DNA of 64,000 bases from Octopus sinensis. Its lineage: Eukaryota. The translations under genes and the position numbers were made by a program. Below, in pieces: positions 15,791-23,463 of this stretch. The stretch's first letter is position 1; every line of letters begins with the position of its first letter. The notes below the pieces were generated by a model. It was not told where the DNA came from. It saw nothing but the letters and a program-made list of their open reading frames with translations, and searched no databases. The DNA is taken from NCBI RefSeq assembly GCF_006345805.1, contig NC_042997.1, positions 199,578,001 through 199,642,000 of the forward strand, written 5' to 3'.

Positions 15791-16062
15791 ATTGTAGGAA
15801 GCAAAACAGGGCAGTCACAACTGCAAAGCATTTTTACTACTGTACTTGCTTACATATAAGACACACACTTGCATAAAATACACTATTTTACAAACATATT
15901 TTGTGGAGAAAAAGCAAATTTGGTATGTTTCATCATACACTTACTGAAAGATATTTTAAAGAAGTTTTACAGAGTAAAATGTTTGATTCTCTGCATGTGA
16001 ATACAATGCTGAAACAGTTTACTGGAATAAAGTATGAAACCATAAATTTATTATTCATAAAT

Positions 16063-16278
16063 TGTTGTTAGTTGTCGGAGCACTGCATCCTTCAAAACTT
16101 CCATGCTTCCTGAGATTCGCCAACACTACAGCTGATTTTCTCTCCTCCATGCACACGCAAGCATGTATCTGACTCATACACTGTTCTCTTCCCAGACTGC
16201 ATATGCTTTATATGCACTGTCTGACAAGTTGTGGTGCACCTGAGCACTGTATACAATAATTTCATCATTATTATTTTT
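16063..16278 (+). mobile_element. CR1-type LINE 3'-end fragment directly upstream of the full-length copy
   Basis: Matches the ORF2 C-terminus (CACTGCATCCTTCAAAACTTCCATGCTTCCTGAG), the long UTR, the hairpin and an (ATT) tail. Confidence 0.85.
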
Positions 16279-16697
16279 TAAAAGTTGAGGGTAAAAGAAA
16301 ACGTTGAACGACAGTAAGTACGTCCAAAATTTATAAAGCAGTGACATACATACATAGATACTTGTAGCACACATATATATACGTGCAGAGTGAAAATAAG
16401 TCACACTATTTAATGTGACGGACTACACTGCAAAAGAAATCAAAAAATCACTGATTTCATTTCTGTTTACAAACTTTCTCCGTGTCTACACTAAACATAC
16501 GCACAAATCCTTTTATATATACACACGCAATATTTAAGAAAAAAAGGAATATACACAAAAAAGAACGAAACATGTGTATATATACACACGCAATATTTAA
16601 GAACAAAAGGAATATACACAAAAAAATAACGAATTAAAAACAAATATTTTATATTTTACTTTTATCGTATTGTTGTTTACATTTTCTGTCTCTACGG

Positions 16698-17849
16698 ATG
16701 ACCAGAACCAACAGAATCGCCATGGTGGAATCCATAGCGGCGTGCGATAAGACTGGTCGCTGCTCCAAAATAGAACACTGCCCAGAAAATCACACCTGCC
16801 ACATCTGTACGGAACCCGAAAATACGTTCCGTAATCGCTGGGTCGAATGTGGGACATGCCTCATCTCTGTCTGCCTCCAATGTGCCACGGATTTTCAGAA
16901 GATCCCAGGCCAAAAAAAGAGCCATCATAATGCTATGATGGATAGACTCTGGAAGATGGTTCAGCTTAAATCTTGGACTTTTCAGTGTCAGGCCTGCGTG
17001 CCTCCACAACCGACGATTGTGTCTCCCCCTGCCACTCCCGTGGAGGAGGCGGAACAGCAACAGCAGCAACAACAAAATCAACCACAACTAGAGCAGCAGC
17101 AGCAGCAACAACAACAACAGCAGCAACAACAAAATCAACCACAACCAGAGCAGCAGCAACAACATCAACAACAACAGCAGCAACAACAAAATCAACCACA
17201 ACCAGAGCAGCAGCAGCAACAACAACAACACCAATTGACCAGTGCGGTTCTTGCAGAACTGCAACAATCGATCTGTGCTTTAAGAGGGGAAGTAGCAGGA
17301 ATAAAAGCAAGCATTCAGGTTGGACTCCACAATGAGGGGTCTTATCGGAATGCTCTGCTAAAGAACCTCCCTGTACCTGTACCTCTTGTCGCATCTAAGA
17401 CCGAGGATTCTGCTACCCATGAAGTCATTGCCATTGGGGTGCCTGAAGACATGGCTGATCTTCAGGCATTTGCTGCCAACTCAGCCAAAGACCTAGGCTG
17501 CGTTCCCCCAACGGGTGCTATCCGCCTTGGACGGCCTGGCCCAAAACCTAGGCTCATCAAGCTGTCTTTTTCGGACCACACTGAGGCAACCTCTTACCAT
17601 CTGGCCTCAGTTAAAGCTGGGCGTGAAAATCGGACCACCTTCCGAACACGCCCAGGCTTACCGTCCGATCTACGTGTAGCGGCTTCCCTGAATAGGAACT
17701 CAGCTCTACAGGAAAGCTTCAGTCTTCGGGAAGATGGACAAATCTGGAGATTTGTCAAGACTGATGAAACGTGGAAGAGAGATACCAGCTGGTCTGAGTG
17801 CTCTCTACCCACAATAACTAAAAAGACTACAGCAACTCAGGGAAACTAA
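16698..17849 (+). CDS. LINE ORF1 protein (PHD-like Zn finger, polyQ repeat, coiled coil, RRM-like region)
   Basis: Intact 383-aa ORF containing CHIC..CGTC..CLQC..CQAC, (Q)nNQPQ(L/P)E x3, the heptad VLAELQQSICALRGEVAGIKASI, and EVIAIGVPE / IRLGRPGPKPRLIKLSF typical of CR1/L2 ORF1. A second ATG in a strong Kozak context (GCCATGG) lies at 16722. Confidence 0.88.
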   Translation: MTRTNRIAMVESIAACDKTGRCSKIEHCPENHTCHICTEPENTFRNRWVECGTCLISVCLQCATDFQKIPGQKKSHHNAMMDRLWKMVQLKSWTFQCQACVPPQPTIVSPPATPVEEAEQQQQQQQNQPQLEQQQQQQQQQQQQQNQPQPEQQQQHQQQQQQQQNQPQPEQQQQQQQHQLTSAVLAELQQSICALRGEVAGIKASIQVGLHNEGSYRNALLKNLPVPVPLVASKTEDSATHEVIAIGVPEDMADLQAFAANSAKDLGCVPPTGAIRLGRPGPKPRLIKLSFSDHTEATSYHLASVKAGRENRTTFRTRPGLPSDLRVAASLNRNSALQESFSLREDGQIWRFVKTDETWKRDTSWSECSLPTITKKTTATQGN

Positions 17850-19270
17850 GCCAGGACAATCTGCCATCCTCCACACACCATCATAAACTGCGAGCAGGGT
17901 ACAAATTGTTGTCCTTAAATGCTCGCAGTTTATGCAACAAAATACATTTGTTCAACGCCTACGTCAGAAGTGTTGACCCTGACTTCATCACTGTCACGGA
18001 AACATGGGCGCATTCCTTACTCTGTGATGGGGTTTTCAACATCACGGGGTACAACCTCTTCCGTAAGGACCGCACTAACCGCCATGGTGGTGGTGTGATG
18101 GTCTACGTTCGTTCAAATTTTTTGGTAATTCCTTGTGCCGATTTGAACGAATCACAAGAAGAAGTTTTTTTCTGTGACGTACGTATGACCATGTCAACAC
18201 TCCTGCTTGGCGTTGTTTATCGTCCCCCAAATTACCATCAGGACACACAGCTTGGCAACATCCTCCGAGCTGCAGCCAGGAAAACAGCCACTTATGTGTT
18301 TATTGCAGGCGATTTCAATTATCCTGAGATTGATTGGGAAACCTTCCGTTGGTCACAGAGTGCAAACGATTTTGTTGAGCTTGTGCTGGACTCAAACTGG
18401 TCACAAGTAGTCACCTCTCCAACAAGAGGCGACAACACCTTGGACCTGCTCTTCACCACAACTCCTGAAGCAGTTATCAATTGCACTACGGAGGAAACTC
18501 TAGGTGACTCTGATCATGCTATGATCATCGCCAATCTGGCTCTTGCGGGCAACAAACACCTGAACCATCTCCAATCTGCTTCCTTCGATTGGAAGAGAGC
18601 AGATTGGAACCTGTACCACACTGAACTACAGCACCCAAACTGGCGTGAATTCTACAACTCTGGAGATGTGAATACTATACTCCAGAGTATCCTGGACTCA
18701 ATATGGGCAGCATGTGCAGCATCAGTGCCACGTAAACAAAAAAAGAAGAACCGCCCCAAAAGGGCAATTTGGGAAACTTCAGCGGTCCGACTTGCCAGGA
18801 AGGAACGTCGGACTGCTGAACAGGAATACAAGTTGCATAAATCAGACACCAACAGGAAGAAGCGGAATAAATCCTCCAACCATCTCAAGCAAGTGACAAA
18901 AAATGCAGTGCTTGAATTTGAACAGTGCATAGCAGCCAATCCTGACAGCAAGGTTTTCTGGAAATATGTGCATTCAAAGCAGAGACCTCACTCTCCAGTG
19001 GGCCCTCTTCGCAACCCTCACACGAACCAGATCACTGACGACCCCAAGGAATGCGCAGAACTCATTGCCGAGTGCTATGCAAACATATTCACTGTCGAAA
19101 GTCAAAATGTACCATCTTCACCATCACTAACAGCAAACTCCATAACAACTATGGAATTTACACCTGCAATGCTGCGACGTCACCTTCAAAATAAGCACAA
19201 CTATGCCTCCCCTGGTCTCGATGGAGTTACATACCTGCTTCTCAAATGTGGCAGGCACTTCCTTTTACAT
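17840..19270 (+). CDS. LINE ORF2 N-terminal part: APE endonuclease + linker (no ATG before 18098)
   Basis: Frame is open from 17822. Motifs LNARSL, VTETW, YRPP, GDFN, LDLL, SDH, FWKYV and SPGLDG are present. The ORF track starts it at TTG 17906. Confidence 0.88.
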
Positions 19271-20670
19271 TGCTTTCTATTTTCTTCCAGTACTGTCTCA
19301 ACAATGGCGCTACTCCGGAGCAGTGGAAAACTGCCAGTGTCATTCCTCTGTTCAAAAAGGGTGACCGCACATCACCTGTCAACTATCGCCCAGTCAGTCT
19401 CACTAGCTGTATTGCAAAACTGATGGAATCGTGTGTCAGAGAAACACTCTGGAACTTCTGGAGCTCTCACAGTCTCATCCGACCCTCACAATATGGATTT
19501 GTCCCTAACTCCAGCTGCAGTGACCAGCTTGTCGAGTTCCTTGAGGACATTACTCAGATCACTGACAGTGGCTCATGGGTGGATGTTGTCTACCTTGACT
19601 TTGCTAAGGCTTTCAACTCTGTGCCACACAAAAGGCTTATGGTGAAACTCTCTGCAATGGGTGTGGGGGATGACCTTTTTAACTGGTTGAAATCCTTCAT
19701 CCTCAGCCGAAAGGAGGTAGTCACAGTTCTAGGACAGCACTCTACACCATATGAGATGTCATCGGGTGTACCACAGGGATCTGTCCTTGGTCCCCTCCTG
19801 TTTGTGGCATACATTAATGACATAGATGCCAATTTAAAGAATGCCACAGTATTGAAATATGCAGATGACATCAAGCTGTACCTTGAAATCAAGAGGACTG
19901 ATCCTGATGTCTACAGCTCTTTCCTGCAATCAGACCTAGACACAATGCAGCAATGGATCACAGACTGGCAACTGAAACTGGCTGTGGACAAGTGTACCAC
20001 CATGCATTTTGGGAGAAAAAACCCTGCGTCCACATACTCCCTCCACAACACTGATATCAAGAAATCCTCTTGCGAGCGTGACTTAGGCATCACTGTCAGC
20101 AGTGATTTGCGTTGGACAAAGCATATCTCTAAAATTGTCAAGAAGGCCGAGGGTGTCTTGGCATCACTCAGCAAGACTTTTGTTAGCCGCTCTCCAGCCA
20201 TCTATTTAAAACTGTATACAGCTATGGTACGACCACACTTGGAATTCGCATCATCAGTTTGGAATCCCTATCTTGCTCAGAACATTGACCTCCTGGAATC
20301 TGTCCAGAGACGTGCAACCAAACGCATACCCTCCATCAGACACCTACCATATTCTGAGCGCCTTGTTTCCCTGGGCATGGATTCACTGAAGCTCCGGCGT
20401 CTGGCGACGGACTTGGTAAACACCCACAAGGTTATCAACCACCTCACCAACAACAACACTGAACACCTTTTTGATCTCCATGTGTCTAACACACGTGAAC
20501 ATGCCTACAAAATCAGAAAACAGCACAGCTCCCATGACTTTCGGAAACATTTTTTCACGCTCAGGGTTGCTGAAGCGTGGAATAAACTGCCTGCATCAGT
20601 TGTTGACTGCCATGACACTGCATCCTTTAAGGCCCTCATGCTTCCCGAAATCCATCGAAAATACACCTGA
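19270..20670 (+). CDS. LINE ORF2 C-terminal part: reverse transcriptase (after 1-nt frameshift)
   Basis: WKTASVIPLFKKG, NYRPVSL, QYGF, YLDFAKAF, SGVPQGSVLGPLLF, YADD (19858-19869), ERDLGI and the CR1-type C-terminus FFTLRVAEAWNKLP. Confidence 0.93.
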   Translation: MLSIFFQYCLNNGATPEQWKTASVIPLFKKGDRTSPVNYRPVSLTSCIAKLMESCVRETLWNFWSSHSLIRPSQYGFVPNSSCSDQLVEFLEDITQITDSGSWVDVVYLDFAKAFNSVPHKRLMVKLSAMGVGDDLFNWLKSFILSRKEVVTVLGQHSTPYEMSSGVPQGSVLGPLLFVAYINDIDANLKNATVLKYADDIKLYLEIKRTDPDVYSSFLQSDLDTMQQWITDWQLKLAVDKCTTMHFGRKNPASTYSLHNTDIKKSSCERDLGITVSSDLRWTKHISKIVKKAEGVLASLSKTFVSRSPAIYLKLYTAMVRPHLEFASSVWNPYLAQNIDLLESVQRRATKRIPSIRHLPYSERLVSLGMDSLKLRRLATDLVNTHKVINHLTNNNTEHLFDLHVSNTREHAYKIRKQHSSHDFRKHFFTLRVAEAWNKLPASVVDCHDTASFKALMLPEIHRKYT

Positions 20671-20693
20671 TTATATATACACTTTAGATGAGT

Positions 20694-20740
20694 TGTAGTG
20701 CACCTGAGCACTGTACACAATTATTATTATTATTATTATT
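20694..20740 (+). other. LINE 3' terminal stem-loop and (ATT)n tail
   Basis: TGTAGTGC-ACCTGA-GCACTGTA followed by (ATT)7. The hairpin is conserved in seven other copies in the window. Confidence 0.8.
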
Positions 20741-21604: not shown

Positions 21605-21892
21605 TAGAAGACCATTTTAAAGCTTGCACTAATGGATTGTGATATTTTGGCTTGTTTTTCCTCATCTTCAACACACAGTCTCCCATCTGTAATAGTCACA
21701 TTAGATGCAAAGTAATTTTTTTTTATACATTTAAAGAAAAAAGAAAAACAGCACATCTTATACACCAGCAAATAAAGTATATACAGATCACTATAATCAA
21801 TATTTACCTGTATAAACAACTACACATATGTGGTAGACACCCACACGATTATCTGCCATCTTTCCAACAAGAACGTTGGGCAATGCTTTGAA

Positions 21893-22228
21893 TTCTATGT
21901 CTAACACTCATGGACATGCTTACAAAATCAGAAAACAACACAACACCCATGAATTTTGTAAACATTTTTTATATGCTCAGAATTGCTAAAGCATGGAATA
22001 AACTACCTGCATCAGTAGTTGGCTGTCAAGCCACTACATCCATCAAAACTTCCATGCTTCCTGAAATTTACCAACAGTACACCCCCCACCCCTTATTTTA
22101 ACAACTCATTCACTGTTCACTTCCTGTACATTGTTCTATGTATTGTTGATGCACTTATGGATACTATTTCTGATGAATTTTTAGTACACCTGAGTACTGT
22201 AGACAATAATTTCATTAATATTATATTT
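21893..22228 (+). mobile_element. Older CR1-type LINE 3'-end fragment
   Basis: Aligns to 20480-20740 (SNTHGHAYKIRKQH...RIAKAWNKLPASVV). The hairpin variant is AGTAC-ACCTGA-GTACT. Confidence 0.85.
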
Positions 22229-22290
22229 TCAAATGAACACAATTGCTGTACTGAAGAAGACACACAACAGGATTGAGGCCCTAAACCCAT

Positions 22291-23299
22291 GGTGCCATAT
22301 AAAAAGCATTTCCACGGGTGTTGGGGCCACATAAAAAGCATTGGTGTTGGTGCCACATAAAAAGCATTGGTGTTGGTGCCACATAAAGAGCATTAGTGTT
22401 GGGGCCACATAAAAAGCATTGGTGTTGGGGCCACATAAAGAGCATTAGTGTTGGGGCCACATAAAAAGCATTGGTGTTGGGGCCACATAAAAAGCATTGG
22501 TGTTGGGGCCACATAAAGAGCATTAGTGTTGGTGCCACATAAAGAGCATTGGTGTTGGTGCCACATAAAAAGCATTGGTGTTGGGGCCACATAAAAAGCA
22601 TTGGTGTTGGGGCCACATAAAGAGCATTAGTGTTGGGGCCACATAAAAAGCATTGGTGTTGGGGCCACATAAAAAGCATTGGTGTTGGGGCCACATAAAG
22701 AGCATTAGTGTTGGTGCCACATAAAAAGCATTGGTGTTGGGGCCACATAAAAAGCATTGGTGTTGGGGCCACATAAAGAGCATTAGTGTTGGGGCCACAT
22801 AAAAAGCATTGGTGTTGGTGCCACATAAAAAGCATTGGTGTTGGTGCCACATAAAGAGCATTAGTGTTGGGGCCACATAAAAAGCATTGGTGTTGGGGCC
22901 ACATAAAGAGCATTAGTGTTGGGGCCACATAAAAAGCATTGGTGTTGGGGCCACATAAAGAGCATTAGTGTTGGGGCCACATAAAGAGCATTAGTGTTGG
23001 GGCCACATAAAAAGCATTGGTGTTGGGGCCACATAAAGAGCATTAGTGTTGGGGCCACATAAAAAGCATTGGTGTTGGTGCCACATAAAAAGCATTGGTG
23101 TTGGGGCCACATAAAAAGCATTGGTGTTGGGGCCACATAAAGAGCATTAGTGTTGGTGCCACATAAAAAGCATTGGTGTTGGTGCCACATAAAAAGCATT
23201 GGTGTTGGTGCCACATAAAGAGCATTGGTGTTGGTACCACATAAAAAGAATTGGTGTTGGTGCCACGCAAAAAGCACTGGTGATGGTGTTACATAAAAG
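22291..23299 (+). repeat. 26-bp minisatellite, ~38 copies (GGKGCCACATAAARAGCATTRGTGTT)
   Basis: Direct tandem units with no spacers. The array runs into the family-C RTE 3' UTR at 23290-23463. Confidence 0.95.
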
Positions 23300-23463
23300 T
23301 ACTCAATACACTATGTAGGGTGGTTGGTGTTAAGAAGGGCATCCAGCAACAGAAACAAAGCCAAAACAGGCTATGGAACCTGGCCCAGTCCTTTGCCTTG
23401 CCAGTTCCTGTTATGCTGTCCAACCCACACCAGAATGGAAAACATGTTAAATGTTGATGATGA
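23290..23463 (+). mobile_element. RTE-clade LINE 3'-UTR terminus (family C)
   Basis: GGTTGGTGTTAAGAAGGGCATCCAGC...CCAACCCACACCAGAATGGAAAACATGTTAAATGT followed by (TGA)n. Confidence 0.75.

What the first reader, a model, noticed from the sequence alone, without database searches (positions are those of the whole stretch)
17819..17910. Retrovirus-style -1 frameshift signal joining LINE ORF1 to an ATG-less ORF2
Seen in sequence: ORF1 ends CAG GGA AAC TAA, so a perfect X XXY YYZ heptamer (G GGA AAC, 17840-17846) sits in frame immediately before the stop. The -1 frame is the ORF2 frame. It is open from 17822 (upstream stop at 17819) and reads GKLSQDNLPSSTHHHKLRAGYKLLSLNARSL straight into the endonuclease. 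The first in-frame ATG (18098) lies downstream of the conserved N(ARS) and E(TW) motifs, so ATG reinitiation would give a truncated endonuclease. Six nt after the heptamer a weak pseudoknot is drawable (AGGA 17853-56 / TCCT 17867-70; CTGC 17861-64 / GCAG 17894-97). Established: G GGA AAC is a known viral slippery site, and the characterised LINEs (L1, SART1) make ORF2 by termination-reinitiation or translational coupling. Inference: this CR1 lineage makes a gag-pol-like ORF1p-ORF2p fusion at a fixed ratio.
Basis: partly seen in the sequence, partly recalled or inferred. Interest (0 to 1): 0.85.

Follow-up and report, generated by a model that had tools for sequence, protein, structure and literature searches.

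The report
LINE fuses genes by ribosome slip
A jumping gene (a CR1-type LINE) ends its first gene with the seven-letter slippery site used by retroviruses, its second gene has no usable start codon and continues one base back, and distant relatives keep the same site, so the enzyme is likely made as a fused protein when ribosomes slip back one base.

Summary
Observation confirmed, except the pseudoknot. ORF1 ends G_GGA_AAC_TAA; ORF2 runs in the -1 frame, and its first ATG lies 60 codons past the first endonuclease motif. The heptamer is the family state (47 of 50 loci). It survives unchanged in a 74%-identical sister family and in the closest public relative, while the flanks diverge. Of 18 EN-related families with a -1 overlap, 11 carry a strict X_XXY_YYZ site (0.7 expected) and 17 carry G_GGA/G_GAA/A_AAA_AAC; 0 of 22 families in other phases carry that motif. 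Those others have their own phase-matched signals: UGA-C in 8 of 8 in-frame families, YCY_UUU_C in 9 of 14 +1 families. No translation data. Best reading: -1 frameshifting gives an ORF1p-ORF2p fusion (about 0.8). In print I found only a review statement for Dictyostelium TRE5-A/TRE3-A. This scan has noted the same kind of site on other genomes (e1-9568866, e1-7350016, e1-8041403, e1-9772336). The window's own copy is broken in ORF2.

The parts
16283..20740 (+). Full-length CR1-group LINE copy (family A): 5' UTR, ORF1, ORF2, short 3' UTR, (ATT)n tail
   Evidence: 5' end at 16283 shared by full-length copies; tail seen; 424 candidates in the genome, the 40 scored 98-100% identical
16698..17849 (+). 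ORF1, 383 codons from ATG: Cys/His-rich N-terminus (PHD-like by eye), polyQ tract, predicted coiled coil + RRM + C-terminal domain; ends Q-G-N-stop
   Evidence: model of the C-terminal half (pLDDT 62) has human L1 ORF1p as best Foldseek hit, E 3.8e-3; no significant Pfam hit
17840..17846 (+). Slippery heptamer G_GGA_AAC, last sense codons of ORF1
   Evidence: kept in family B, L121, L162, L165, L222
17847..17849 (+). ORF1 stop TAA directly after the heptamer
   Evidence: stop directly after the heptamer in 5 of 18 -1-phase families plus family B
17822..17896 (+). ORF2-frame leader (-1 frame), no ATG; variable linker
   Evidence: 3 nt shorter in family B, frame kept; 10 non-synonymous against 4 synonymous codon changes A vs B, so no protein-level constraint shown
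17897..18550 (+). APE-type endonuclease of ORF2; first in-frame ATG at 18098 lies inside it
   Evidence: PF03372 E 3e-14, PF14529 E 4e-15
17882..17934 (+). Predicted 15-bp hairpin 35 nt 3' of the heptamer; family A only
   Evidence: not kept in family B; one of at least five z < -4 windows in the element
17853..17915 (+). Candidate pseudoknot stem (17853-60 with 17908-15, 6-nt spacer) into the loop of that hairpin; complete only in the youngest branch of family A
   Evidence: best of 2010 positions scanned in the element, 0 of 100 shuffles, but pair 17855 broken in 6 of 8 aligned rows and no covariation above shuffles
19260..19280 (+). Private 1-nt frameshift that breaks ORF2 in this copy
19360..20046 (+). 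Reverse transcriptase domain of ORF2 (ORF2 stop 20668-20670)
   Evidence: PF00078 E 1e-37
20698..20740 (+). 3'-terminal small inverted repeat and (ATT)n tail
   Evidence: shared with family B

Best explanation
This CR1-group LINE family ends ORF1 with G_GGA_AAC and a stop, its ATG-less ORF2 lies in the -1 frame, and ORF2 is likely made as an ORF1p-ORF2p fusion by programmed -1 ribosomal frameshifting. Shown: the anatomy, the family state, and nucleotide-level conservation of the heptamer in -1-phase relatives only. Inferred: ribosomes start at the ORF1 AUG; most stop at the UAA and release ORF1p; a minority, with tRNA-Gly on GGA and tRNA-Asn on AAC, re-pair on GGG and AAA, read Q-G-N then L-S-Q in the -1 frame and run through the linker into endonuclease and RT. 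This would set a high ORF1p : ORF2p ratio and tether the enzyme to an ORF1p trimer on its own RNA (a simple route to cis preference). The stimulator is unresolved; my guess (about even odds) is that slow termination at the adjacent stop plus a loose, fast-evolving 3' structure does the job, not a conserved pseudoknot.
For: Family state: 47 of 50 family-A loci. Family B, 74% identical over the element, keeps the 10 nt GGGAAACTAA between diverged flanks, with another upstream codon (TTG for CAG) that still ends in G, a leader 3 nt shorter and no ATG. L121 (EN 57%) ends CAG GGA AAC TAG, phase -1; ORF1 homologue P0001 ends V-G-N (protein only). Among 40 usable families: strict X_XXY_YYZ in the overlap in 11 of 18 -1-phase families (0.71 expected, P 2e-12), 1 of 14 +1 and 0 of 8 in-frame; the post-hoc motif (AAA|GGG|GGA)AAAC in 17 of 18, 0 of 14, 0 of 8. 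Given the tripeptides, about 1 of 17 sites would form the motif by codon usage. 12 of the 17 have no ATG 6 or more codons before the first EN motif. -1 families are spread over several deep branches of the EN tree. The other phases carry their own recoding-type signals. G_GGA_AAC is among the most shifty heptamers (PMC5009743); GGA is a tolerated XXX (PMC3542737). Contigs of guessed-RNA runs cross the junction colinearly.
Against: No translation data of any kind. No conserved stimulator 5-9 nt downstream, which canonical -1 frameshifting needs. 5 of 17 heptamer-bearing families have an in-frame ATG well before the EN motif (L162 and L165 about 14 nt after the stop), and L121 has one 2 codons before it. 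A CTG ten codons before the EN motif is present in both A and B, though not in L121. Families are related, so the P values overstate independence; the 17-of-18 motif was defined after seeing the data; the codon test is conditioned on the chosen sites; L121's ORF1 end was set by hand from homology (without it and the window: 15 of 16 and 9 of 16). One -1 family (L152, ORF1 cut by the contig edge) has no site.
Confidence: 0.8

Rival explanations
1. Termination-reinitiation at a non-AUG codon (as proposed for human L1): ribosomes stop at UAA and restart at a CUG/UUG in the leader, giving free ORF2p; the heptamer would be a by-product or part of the reinitiation signal.
For: Reinitiation or coupling is the documented mode for L1 and SART1 (passages). 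CTG at 17861 and 17888 and TTG at 17906/17909 are in frame; the CTG at -10 codons is also in family B. Some relatives have an ATG shortly after the stop.
Against: It does not predict a heptamer tied to the -1 phase, nor one lying 15-189 nt upstream of the stop in most -1 families. No TURBS-type UGGGA 30-95 nt upstream of the stop in A or B, and in 1 of 40 families. The -10 CTG is absent from L121.
Confidence: 0.11
2. Both routes operate: frameshifting gives a fusion, and reinitiation or leaky initiation gives free ORF2p that does most of the work.
For: L162 and L165 keep both the heptamer-stop and an ATG 13-14 codons before the EN motif.
Against: Families A and B have no such ATG.
Confidence: 0.05
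3. The frame is corrected at RNA level: polymerase slippage adding one base in the G or A run, splicing or editing.
For: A one-G insertion at the site exists in 9 of 27 family-B loci.
Against: Runs of three bases are short for slippage. The extra-G loci are one clade inside a duplicated composite repeat that lacks most of ORF1. Among the rows shown for 4 guessed-RNA runs there is no joint, indel or base change at the heptamer (contigs only, tables cut, rare variants are dropped).
Confidence: 0.03
4. Chance or protein constraint on a C-terminal G-N motif.
For: In one branch the site lies in a conserved ORF1 motif (EN[YF]xFxVVG).
Against: Tripeptides differ (QGN, LGN, TGN, VEN, AKN, SKN) while the codons always give the heptamer; background is 4 sites in 8992 ORF1 codons.
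Confidence: 0.01

Closest known systems
Retroviral / coronaviral programmed -1 frameshifting (gag-pol type; X_XXY_YYZ + 3' structure)
   Same: Perfect heptamer G_GGA_AAC at the end of the structural ORF, enzyme ORF in the -1 frame with no start (definition from PMC3542737; heptamer ranking from PMC5009743).
   Different: Non-LTR element with no protease to cut the fusion; no conserved stem-loop or pseudoknot found 5-9 nt downstream; ORF1 is L1-type (coiled coil-RRM), not Gag.
Dictyostelium TRE5-A / TRE3-A (APE-type non-LTR elements)
   Same: A review states that both need a -1 frameshift for ORF2 (PMC5911963, figure-legend passage).
   Different: Amoebozoan, tRNA-gene-targeting elements with a C-terminal zinc finger; the passage gives no slippery site or test; primary papers not seen.
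Human L1 and silkworm SART1 ORF2 translation
   Same: Bicistronic LINE RNA, ORF2 dependent on ORF1 translation (PMC2881922, PMC3708506 passages).
   Different: Separate ORFs with an AUG (SART1 UAAUG), free ORF2p by reinitiation or coupling; here overlap, no AUG, predicted fusion.
2A ribosome-skipping in CR1/L2/Crack/Ingi elements (Odon et al. 2013)
   Same: Virus-like translational recoding just N-terminal to the APE domain in the same LINE group (PMC3708506, PMC13405545 passages).
   Different: 2A splits one ORF into two proteins; there is no NPGP motif in this junction, and frameshifting joins two ORFs.
Drosophila R1A/R1B
   Same: [quoted passage not shown]
   Different: No slippery site or mechanism in the passages seen; different clade, rDNA-specific.

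Membership tests
Programmed -1 ribosomal frameshift site | X_XXY_YYZ heptamer in the zero frame | tested here: met
   definition
Programmed -1 ribosomal frameshift site | Downstream ORF open in the -1 frame from the heptamer, without its own start | tested here: met
Programmed -1 ribosomal frameshift site | Heptamer conserved at nucleotide level beyond protein constraint | tested here: met
Programmed -1 ribosomal frameshift site | Conserved stimulatory RNA structure 5-9 nt downstream | tested here: not met
   candidate pseudoknot complete only in the youngest A branch; not kept in older A, B or L121; no outstanding long-range partner shared by A and B
Programmed -1 ribosomal frameshift site | Transframe protein or measured shift | not testable with these tools
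   no ribosome profiling or proteomics available; one search listed only contig-kept runs
CR1-group non-LTR retrotransposon | ORF2 with APE endonuclease and RT | tested here: met
CR1-group non-LTR retrotransposon | ORF1 of a type known in CR1/L2 lineages (PHD + coiled coil-RRM-CTD, type IIC of PMC4120745) | tested here: inconclusive
   L1 ORF1p best fold hit at E 3.8e-3 on a pLDDT-62 model; Cys/His-rich N-terminus without a significant Pfam PHD hit; types
CR1-group non-LTR retrotransposon | No RNase H or C-terminal CCHC; 3' microsatellite tail (features recalled) | tested here: met
CR1 clade proper (against L2, Crack, Daphne and others) | Position in an RT tree with named reference elements | not testable with these tools
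   no named reference set on hand; the EN tree only separates it from the genome's L1/Tx1-like elements
TURBS-type termination-reinitiation | UGGGA 40-90 nt upstream of the stop and an AUG at the stop | tested here: not met
2A ribosome skipping | GxExNPGP motif before the endonuclease | tested here: not met
   leader translation; motif

The most novel reading that the evidence does not exclude
CR1-group LINEs as a rule make ORF2p as an ORF1p-ORF2p fusion by translational recoding and switch between three virus-like signals matched to the phase of the junction: -1 slippage on X_XXA_AAC, readthrough of UGA-C, and +1 slippage on UUU_C or AGG_C; in at least one branch the -1 site is stimulated by pairing with the element's own 3' UTR, so that only full-length RNA makes the enzyme.
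Probability: 0.6. Interest if true: 0.88.

Novelty: new variant of a known kind. Interest (0 to 1): 0.76.

Why it matters
How LINEs translate ORF2 is a long-standing open question, answered so far from L1 and SART1 with reinitiation. CR1-group elements dominate many animal genomes. If they use viral-type recoding, ORF2p is born fused to ORF1p, which would explain the protein ratio and cis preference, change how 'intact' copies are annotated (ATG-based ORF callers truncate the endonuclease), and matter for anyone rebuilding LINE assays or insertion tools. The site is short and can be tested at once with a reporter.

Tried and rejected
My own better pseudoknot: striking in the window but not conserved, so not used as support. 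Extra-G copies of family B as proof that a fixed fusion is viable: rejected, they are one clade in a duplicated composite repeat without most of ORF1. Long-range pairing with the 3' end for families A and B: terminal windows ranked 62nd or worse of 348 for the region 3' of the site; a rank-1 pairing of the region 5' of the site with the end of ORF2 in both A and B uses different positions and would be unwound before the shift. Two shared partners (near 18085-18100 and near 20150-20165) are best-of-348 hits and unproven. Protein-level selection on the leader: not shown. Degenerate EN pattern in the own genome gave an unrelated repeat and chance hits. PF03372 search returned L1/Tx1-like families, used only as outgroup. 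Viral contigs: no relative. PDB sequence search with the EN: no hit. No RNA holder on record was listed; the runs laid are guessed RNA and contigs, so nothing is claimed on expression level. Ten literature searches gave no paper describing a slippery site in CR1-group LINEs; subscription journals, Repbase reports and Kojima 2005 could not be read, so prior mention there is possible.

Full report
1. The observation. ORF1 runs from ATG 16698 to TAA 17847-49 and ends CAG GGA AAC TAA; the heptamer G_GGA_AAC is at 17840-46. The ORF2 frame is -1, open from 17822, and reads into an APE endonuclease (PF03372, PF14529) and, after a break near 19270, an RT (PF00078). The first in-frame ATG is at 18098, 60 codons after the Asn of the first endonuclease motif and past the ETW motif; that these two residues are catalytic is recalled from L1 EN. 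Only 2 strict heptamers lie in the ORF1 frame, and only this one in the overlap.

2. The element. It is a full-length CR1-group LINE, 16283 to about 20740, in a 2.7-Gb genome. The C-terminal half of ORF1 folds (pLDDT 62, 4 sequences) as helix + RRM + small domain, with human L1 ORF1p as best, sub-threshold hit. The family is young: 424 candidates, the 40 scored 98-100% identical. This copy is dead (private ORF2 frameshift, 12-nt ORF1 deletion), but other copies have ORF2 frames of about 950 codons. The heptamer-stop is intact in 47 of 50 family-A loci. Because copies are so alike, this shows only that the junction is the family state.

3. Conservation at useful distances. A sister family B in the same genome, 73-76% identical over the element, keeps GGGAAACTAA as an island: the ORF1 tail differs (K-I-L-G-N against A-T-Q-G-N), the codon before still ends in G, the leader is 3 nt shorter, and there is no ATG. 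Of 27 B loci read, 16 have the intact site, 2 have point changes and 9 have one extra G. The closest public relative, L121 (EN 57%), ends CAG GGA AAC TAG in -1 phase with an unalignable leader, and has an ATG only 2 codons before the first EN motif. The only ORF1 homologue found in the protein database ends V-G-N.

4. Survey of distant relatives. An EN alignment brought 80 metagenome loci (best 80 of 162) and 32 loci from genome bins; viral contigs gave none. Of these 112, 79 had a readable first EN motif; with the window, 80 rows fell into 55 families at 70% identity, of which 40 had a usable ORF1 adjoining ORF2. Hosts are unknown eukaryotes. One representative per family was scored (longest ORF1; some dead members differ in phase). 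Phases: 18 at -1, 14 at +1, 8 in frame. Strict X_XXY_YYZ in the ORF1 frame of the overlap: 11 of 18 (0.71 expected from 14 sites in 8992 upstream codons; P 2e-12), 1 of 14, 0 of 8. The post-hoc set G_GGA_AAC, G_GAA_AAC, A_AAA_AAC: 17 of 18, 0 of 14, 0 of 8. Leaving out the window and the hand-set L121: 9 of 16 and 15 of 16. Seven or more different tripeptides occur at the site, and codon usage predicts about 1 match in 17 (conditioned on the chosen sites). On the EN tree (41 rows; 3 short rows dropped) -1 families span several deep, supported branches, mixed with in-frame families; they are kin, so the P values are upper bounds on the evidence, not probabilities. Against a pure frameshift reading, 5 of 17 have an ATG 6 or more codons before the EN motif.

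5. The other phases. All 8 in-frame families have TGA-C at the ORF1 stop, against 1 of 32 others; 9 of 14 +1 families have YCY_TTT_C near the stop (0.17 expected, post hoc, partly tied to a protein motif) and 4 have GGG_AGG_C. UGA-C is a known leaky context (PMC3542737 passages) and UUU_CGN a +1 motif (PMC5052127, listing and start of abstract only). That each phase carries the signal that would bridge it is the strongest indirect argument that these elements make fusions.

6. What failed. A better pseudoknot (17853-60 with 17908-15, 6-nt spacer, plus that hairpin) scores best of 2010 positions in the element and above 100 of 100 shuffles. But G17855 is A in 23 of 50 A loci and in all 4 read sets, family B keeps neither stem, there is no covariation above shuffles, and the element has several equally strong hairpins. 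Long-range pairing with the 3' end, a lead from e1-9772336, was not found for A or B but ranks first in L150 and L162. The extra-G B copies looked like a natural fixed fusion, but form one clade within a duplicated composite repeat lacking most of ORF1. The leader shows no protein-level constraint. Contigs from 4 guessed-RNA runs cover the junction, three of them bridging it colinearly, with no joint or indel listed there; this speaks weakly against splicing and says nothing on translation.

7. Mechanism. Most likely (0.8): tandem -1 slippage of tRNA-Gly and tRNA-Asn on G_GGA_AAC lets a minority of ribosomes bypass the UAA and make ORF1p-linker-EN-RT. Shown: anatomy, family state, phase-specific conservation. 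Inferred: the shift, the fusion, the ratio, tethering to ORF1p. Unresolved: the stimulator. Rivals: non-AUG reinitiation (0.11), both routes (0.05), RNA-level correction (0.03), chance (0.01).

8. Known systems and novelty. It works like retroviral gag-pol -1 frameshifting but fails one defining test (conserved 3' structure), so I call it a strong candidate site, not a proven one. Passages read: PMC5009743 (first 300,000 of 449,034 characters held) treats LINE ORF2 expression as unusual initiation and mentions frameshifting for HeT-A gag; PMC2881922 and PMC3708506 give reinitiation/coupling and 2A; PMC5911963 states a -1 frameshift for TRE5-A and TRE3-A; PMC2718515 notes overlapping R1 ORFs; PMC1965478, PMC13405545 and PMC4120745 gave background; term searches in PMC13343379 and PMC4686597 found no mention of frameshifting. 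No supplements were read. Ten searches found no report of a slippery site in CR1-group LINEs; closed journals and Repbase were not visible. This scan's notes report the same kind of junction on other genomes; these are unchecked AI notes, were read after my comparative results, and are not counted as evidence. Verdict: a real feature, new variant of a known kind, interest 0.76.

Noticed in passing
L135, L194, L203, L207, L209, L210, L211, L215 (ORF1 stops): All 8 families with ORF1 and ORF2 in one frame are separated by a single TGA followed by C (TGA-CT or TGA-CA), the leaky readthrough context; 1 of the 32 other families has it. They sit on several branches of the tree.
   Followed up: partly
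L132, L138, L144, L145, L146, L153, L155, L171, L197; L156, L161, L185, L190: Of 14 families with a +1 overlap, 9 have YCY_TTT_C shortly before the ORF1 stop (like the UUU_C +1 sites of amalgaviruses; PA-X likeness recalled) and 4 have GGG_AGG_C (Ty1-like, recalled; not significant alone). 7 end ORF1 with LNPxAxxF, resembling a PAM2 motif (recalled), which partly confounds the TTT_C count; most also have in-frame ATGs.
   Followed up: partly
L150 and L162, junction and 3' UTR: In these two related -1 families the bases 7-17 nt after the heptamer pair best (rank 1 of 250 and of 182 windows) with their own 3' UTR about 180 nt after the WNxLP motif, with different sequences in the two. Lead taken from e1-9772336. 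Not seen in A, B or L201.
   Followed up: partly
L233, L235-237, L241, L242, L248, L249, L252; L263-L270: A composite repeat of at least 6.5 kb (RT fragment of another LINE type, RTE-like by recall, joined to a 5'-truncated family-B copy and shared 3' flank); nine loci carry one extra G in the heptamer, which puts the ORF1 remnant and ORF2 in one frame.
   Followed up: partly
window 16600-20700: The element RNA is rich in strong local hairpins inside coding sequence (z -6.1 at 17566, -5.7 at 17881, -4.8 at 18556, -4.6 at 18016, -4.4 at 18061).
   Followed up: no
window 16060-16275 and 21870-22000: Short 3'-end fragments of related CR1 copies flank the element; the first lies directly upstream and matches the family-B 3' end.
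   Followed up: partly
L062-L090 (own genome): An L1/Tx1-like family whose ORF2 frame opens only about 10 codons before the EN motif with no Met (20 of the 30 loci), beside two families that start with Met.
   Followed up: no
window 17040-17238: ORF1 carries an expanded Q-rich repeat between the Cys-rich region and the coiled coil.
   Followed up: no
window 22281-23310: Minisatellite array with long open frames on the minus strand.
   Followed up: no
L201-L232: Eukaryote-type LINE contigs sit in bacterial and archaeal genome bins of the genome collection, most likely binning contamination.
   Followed up: no
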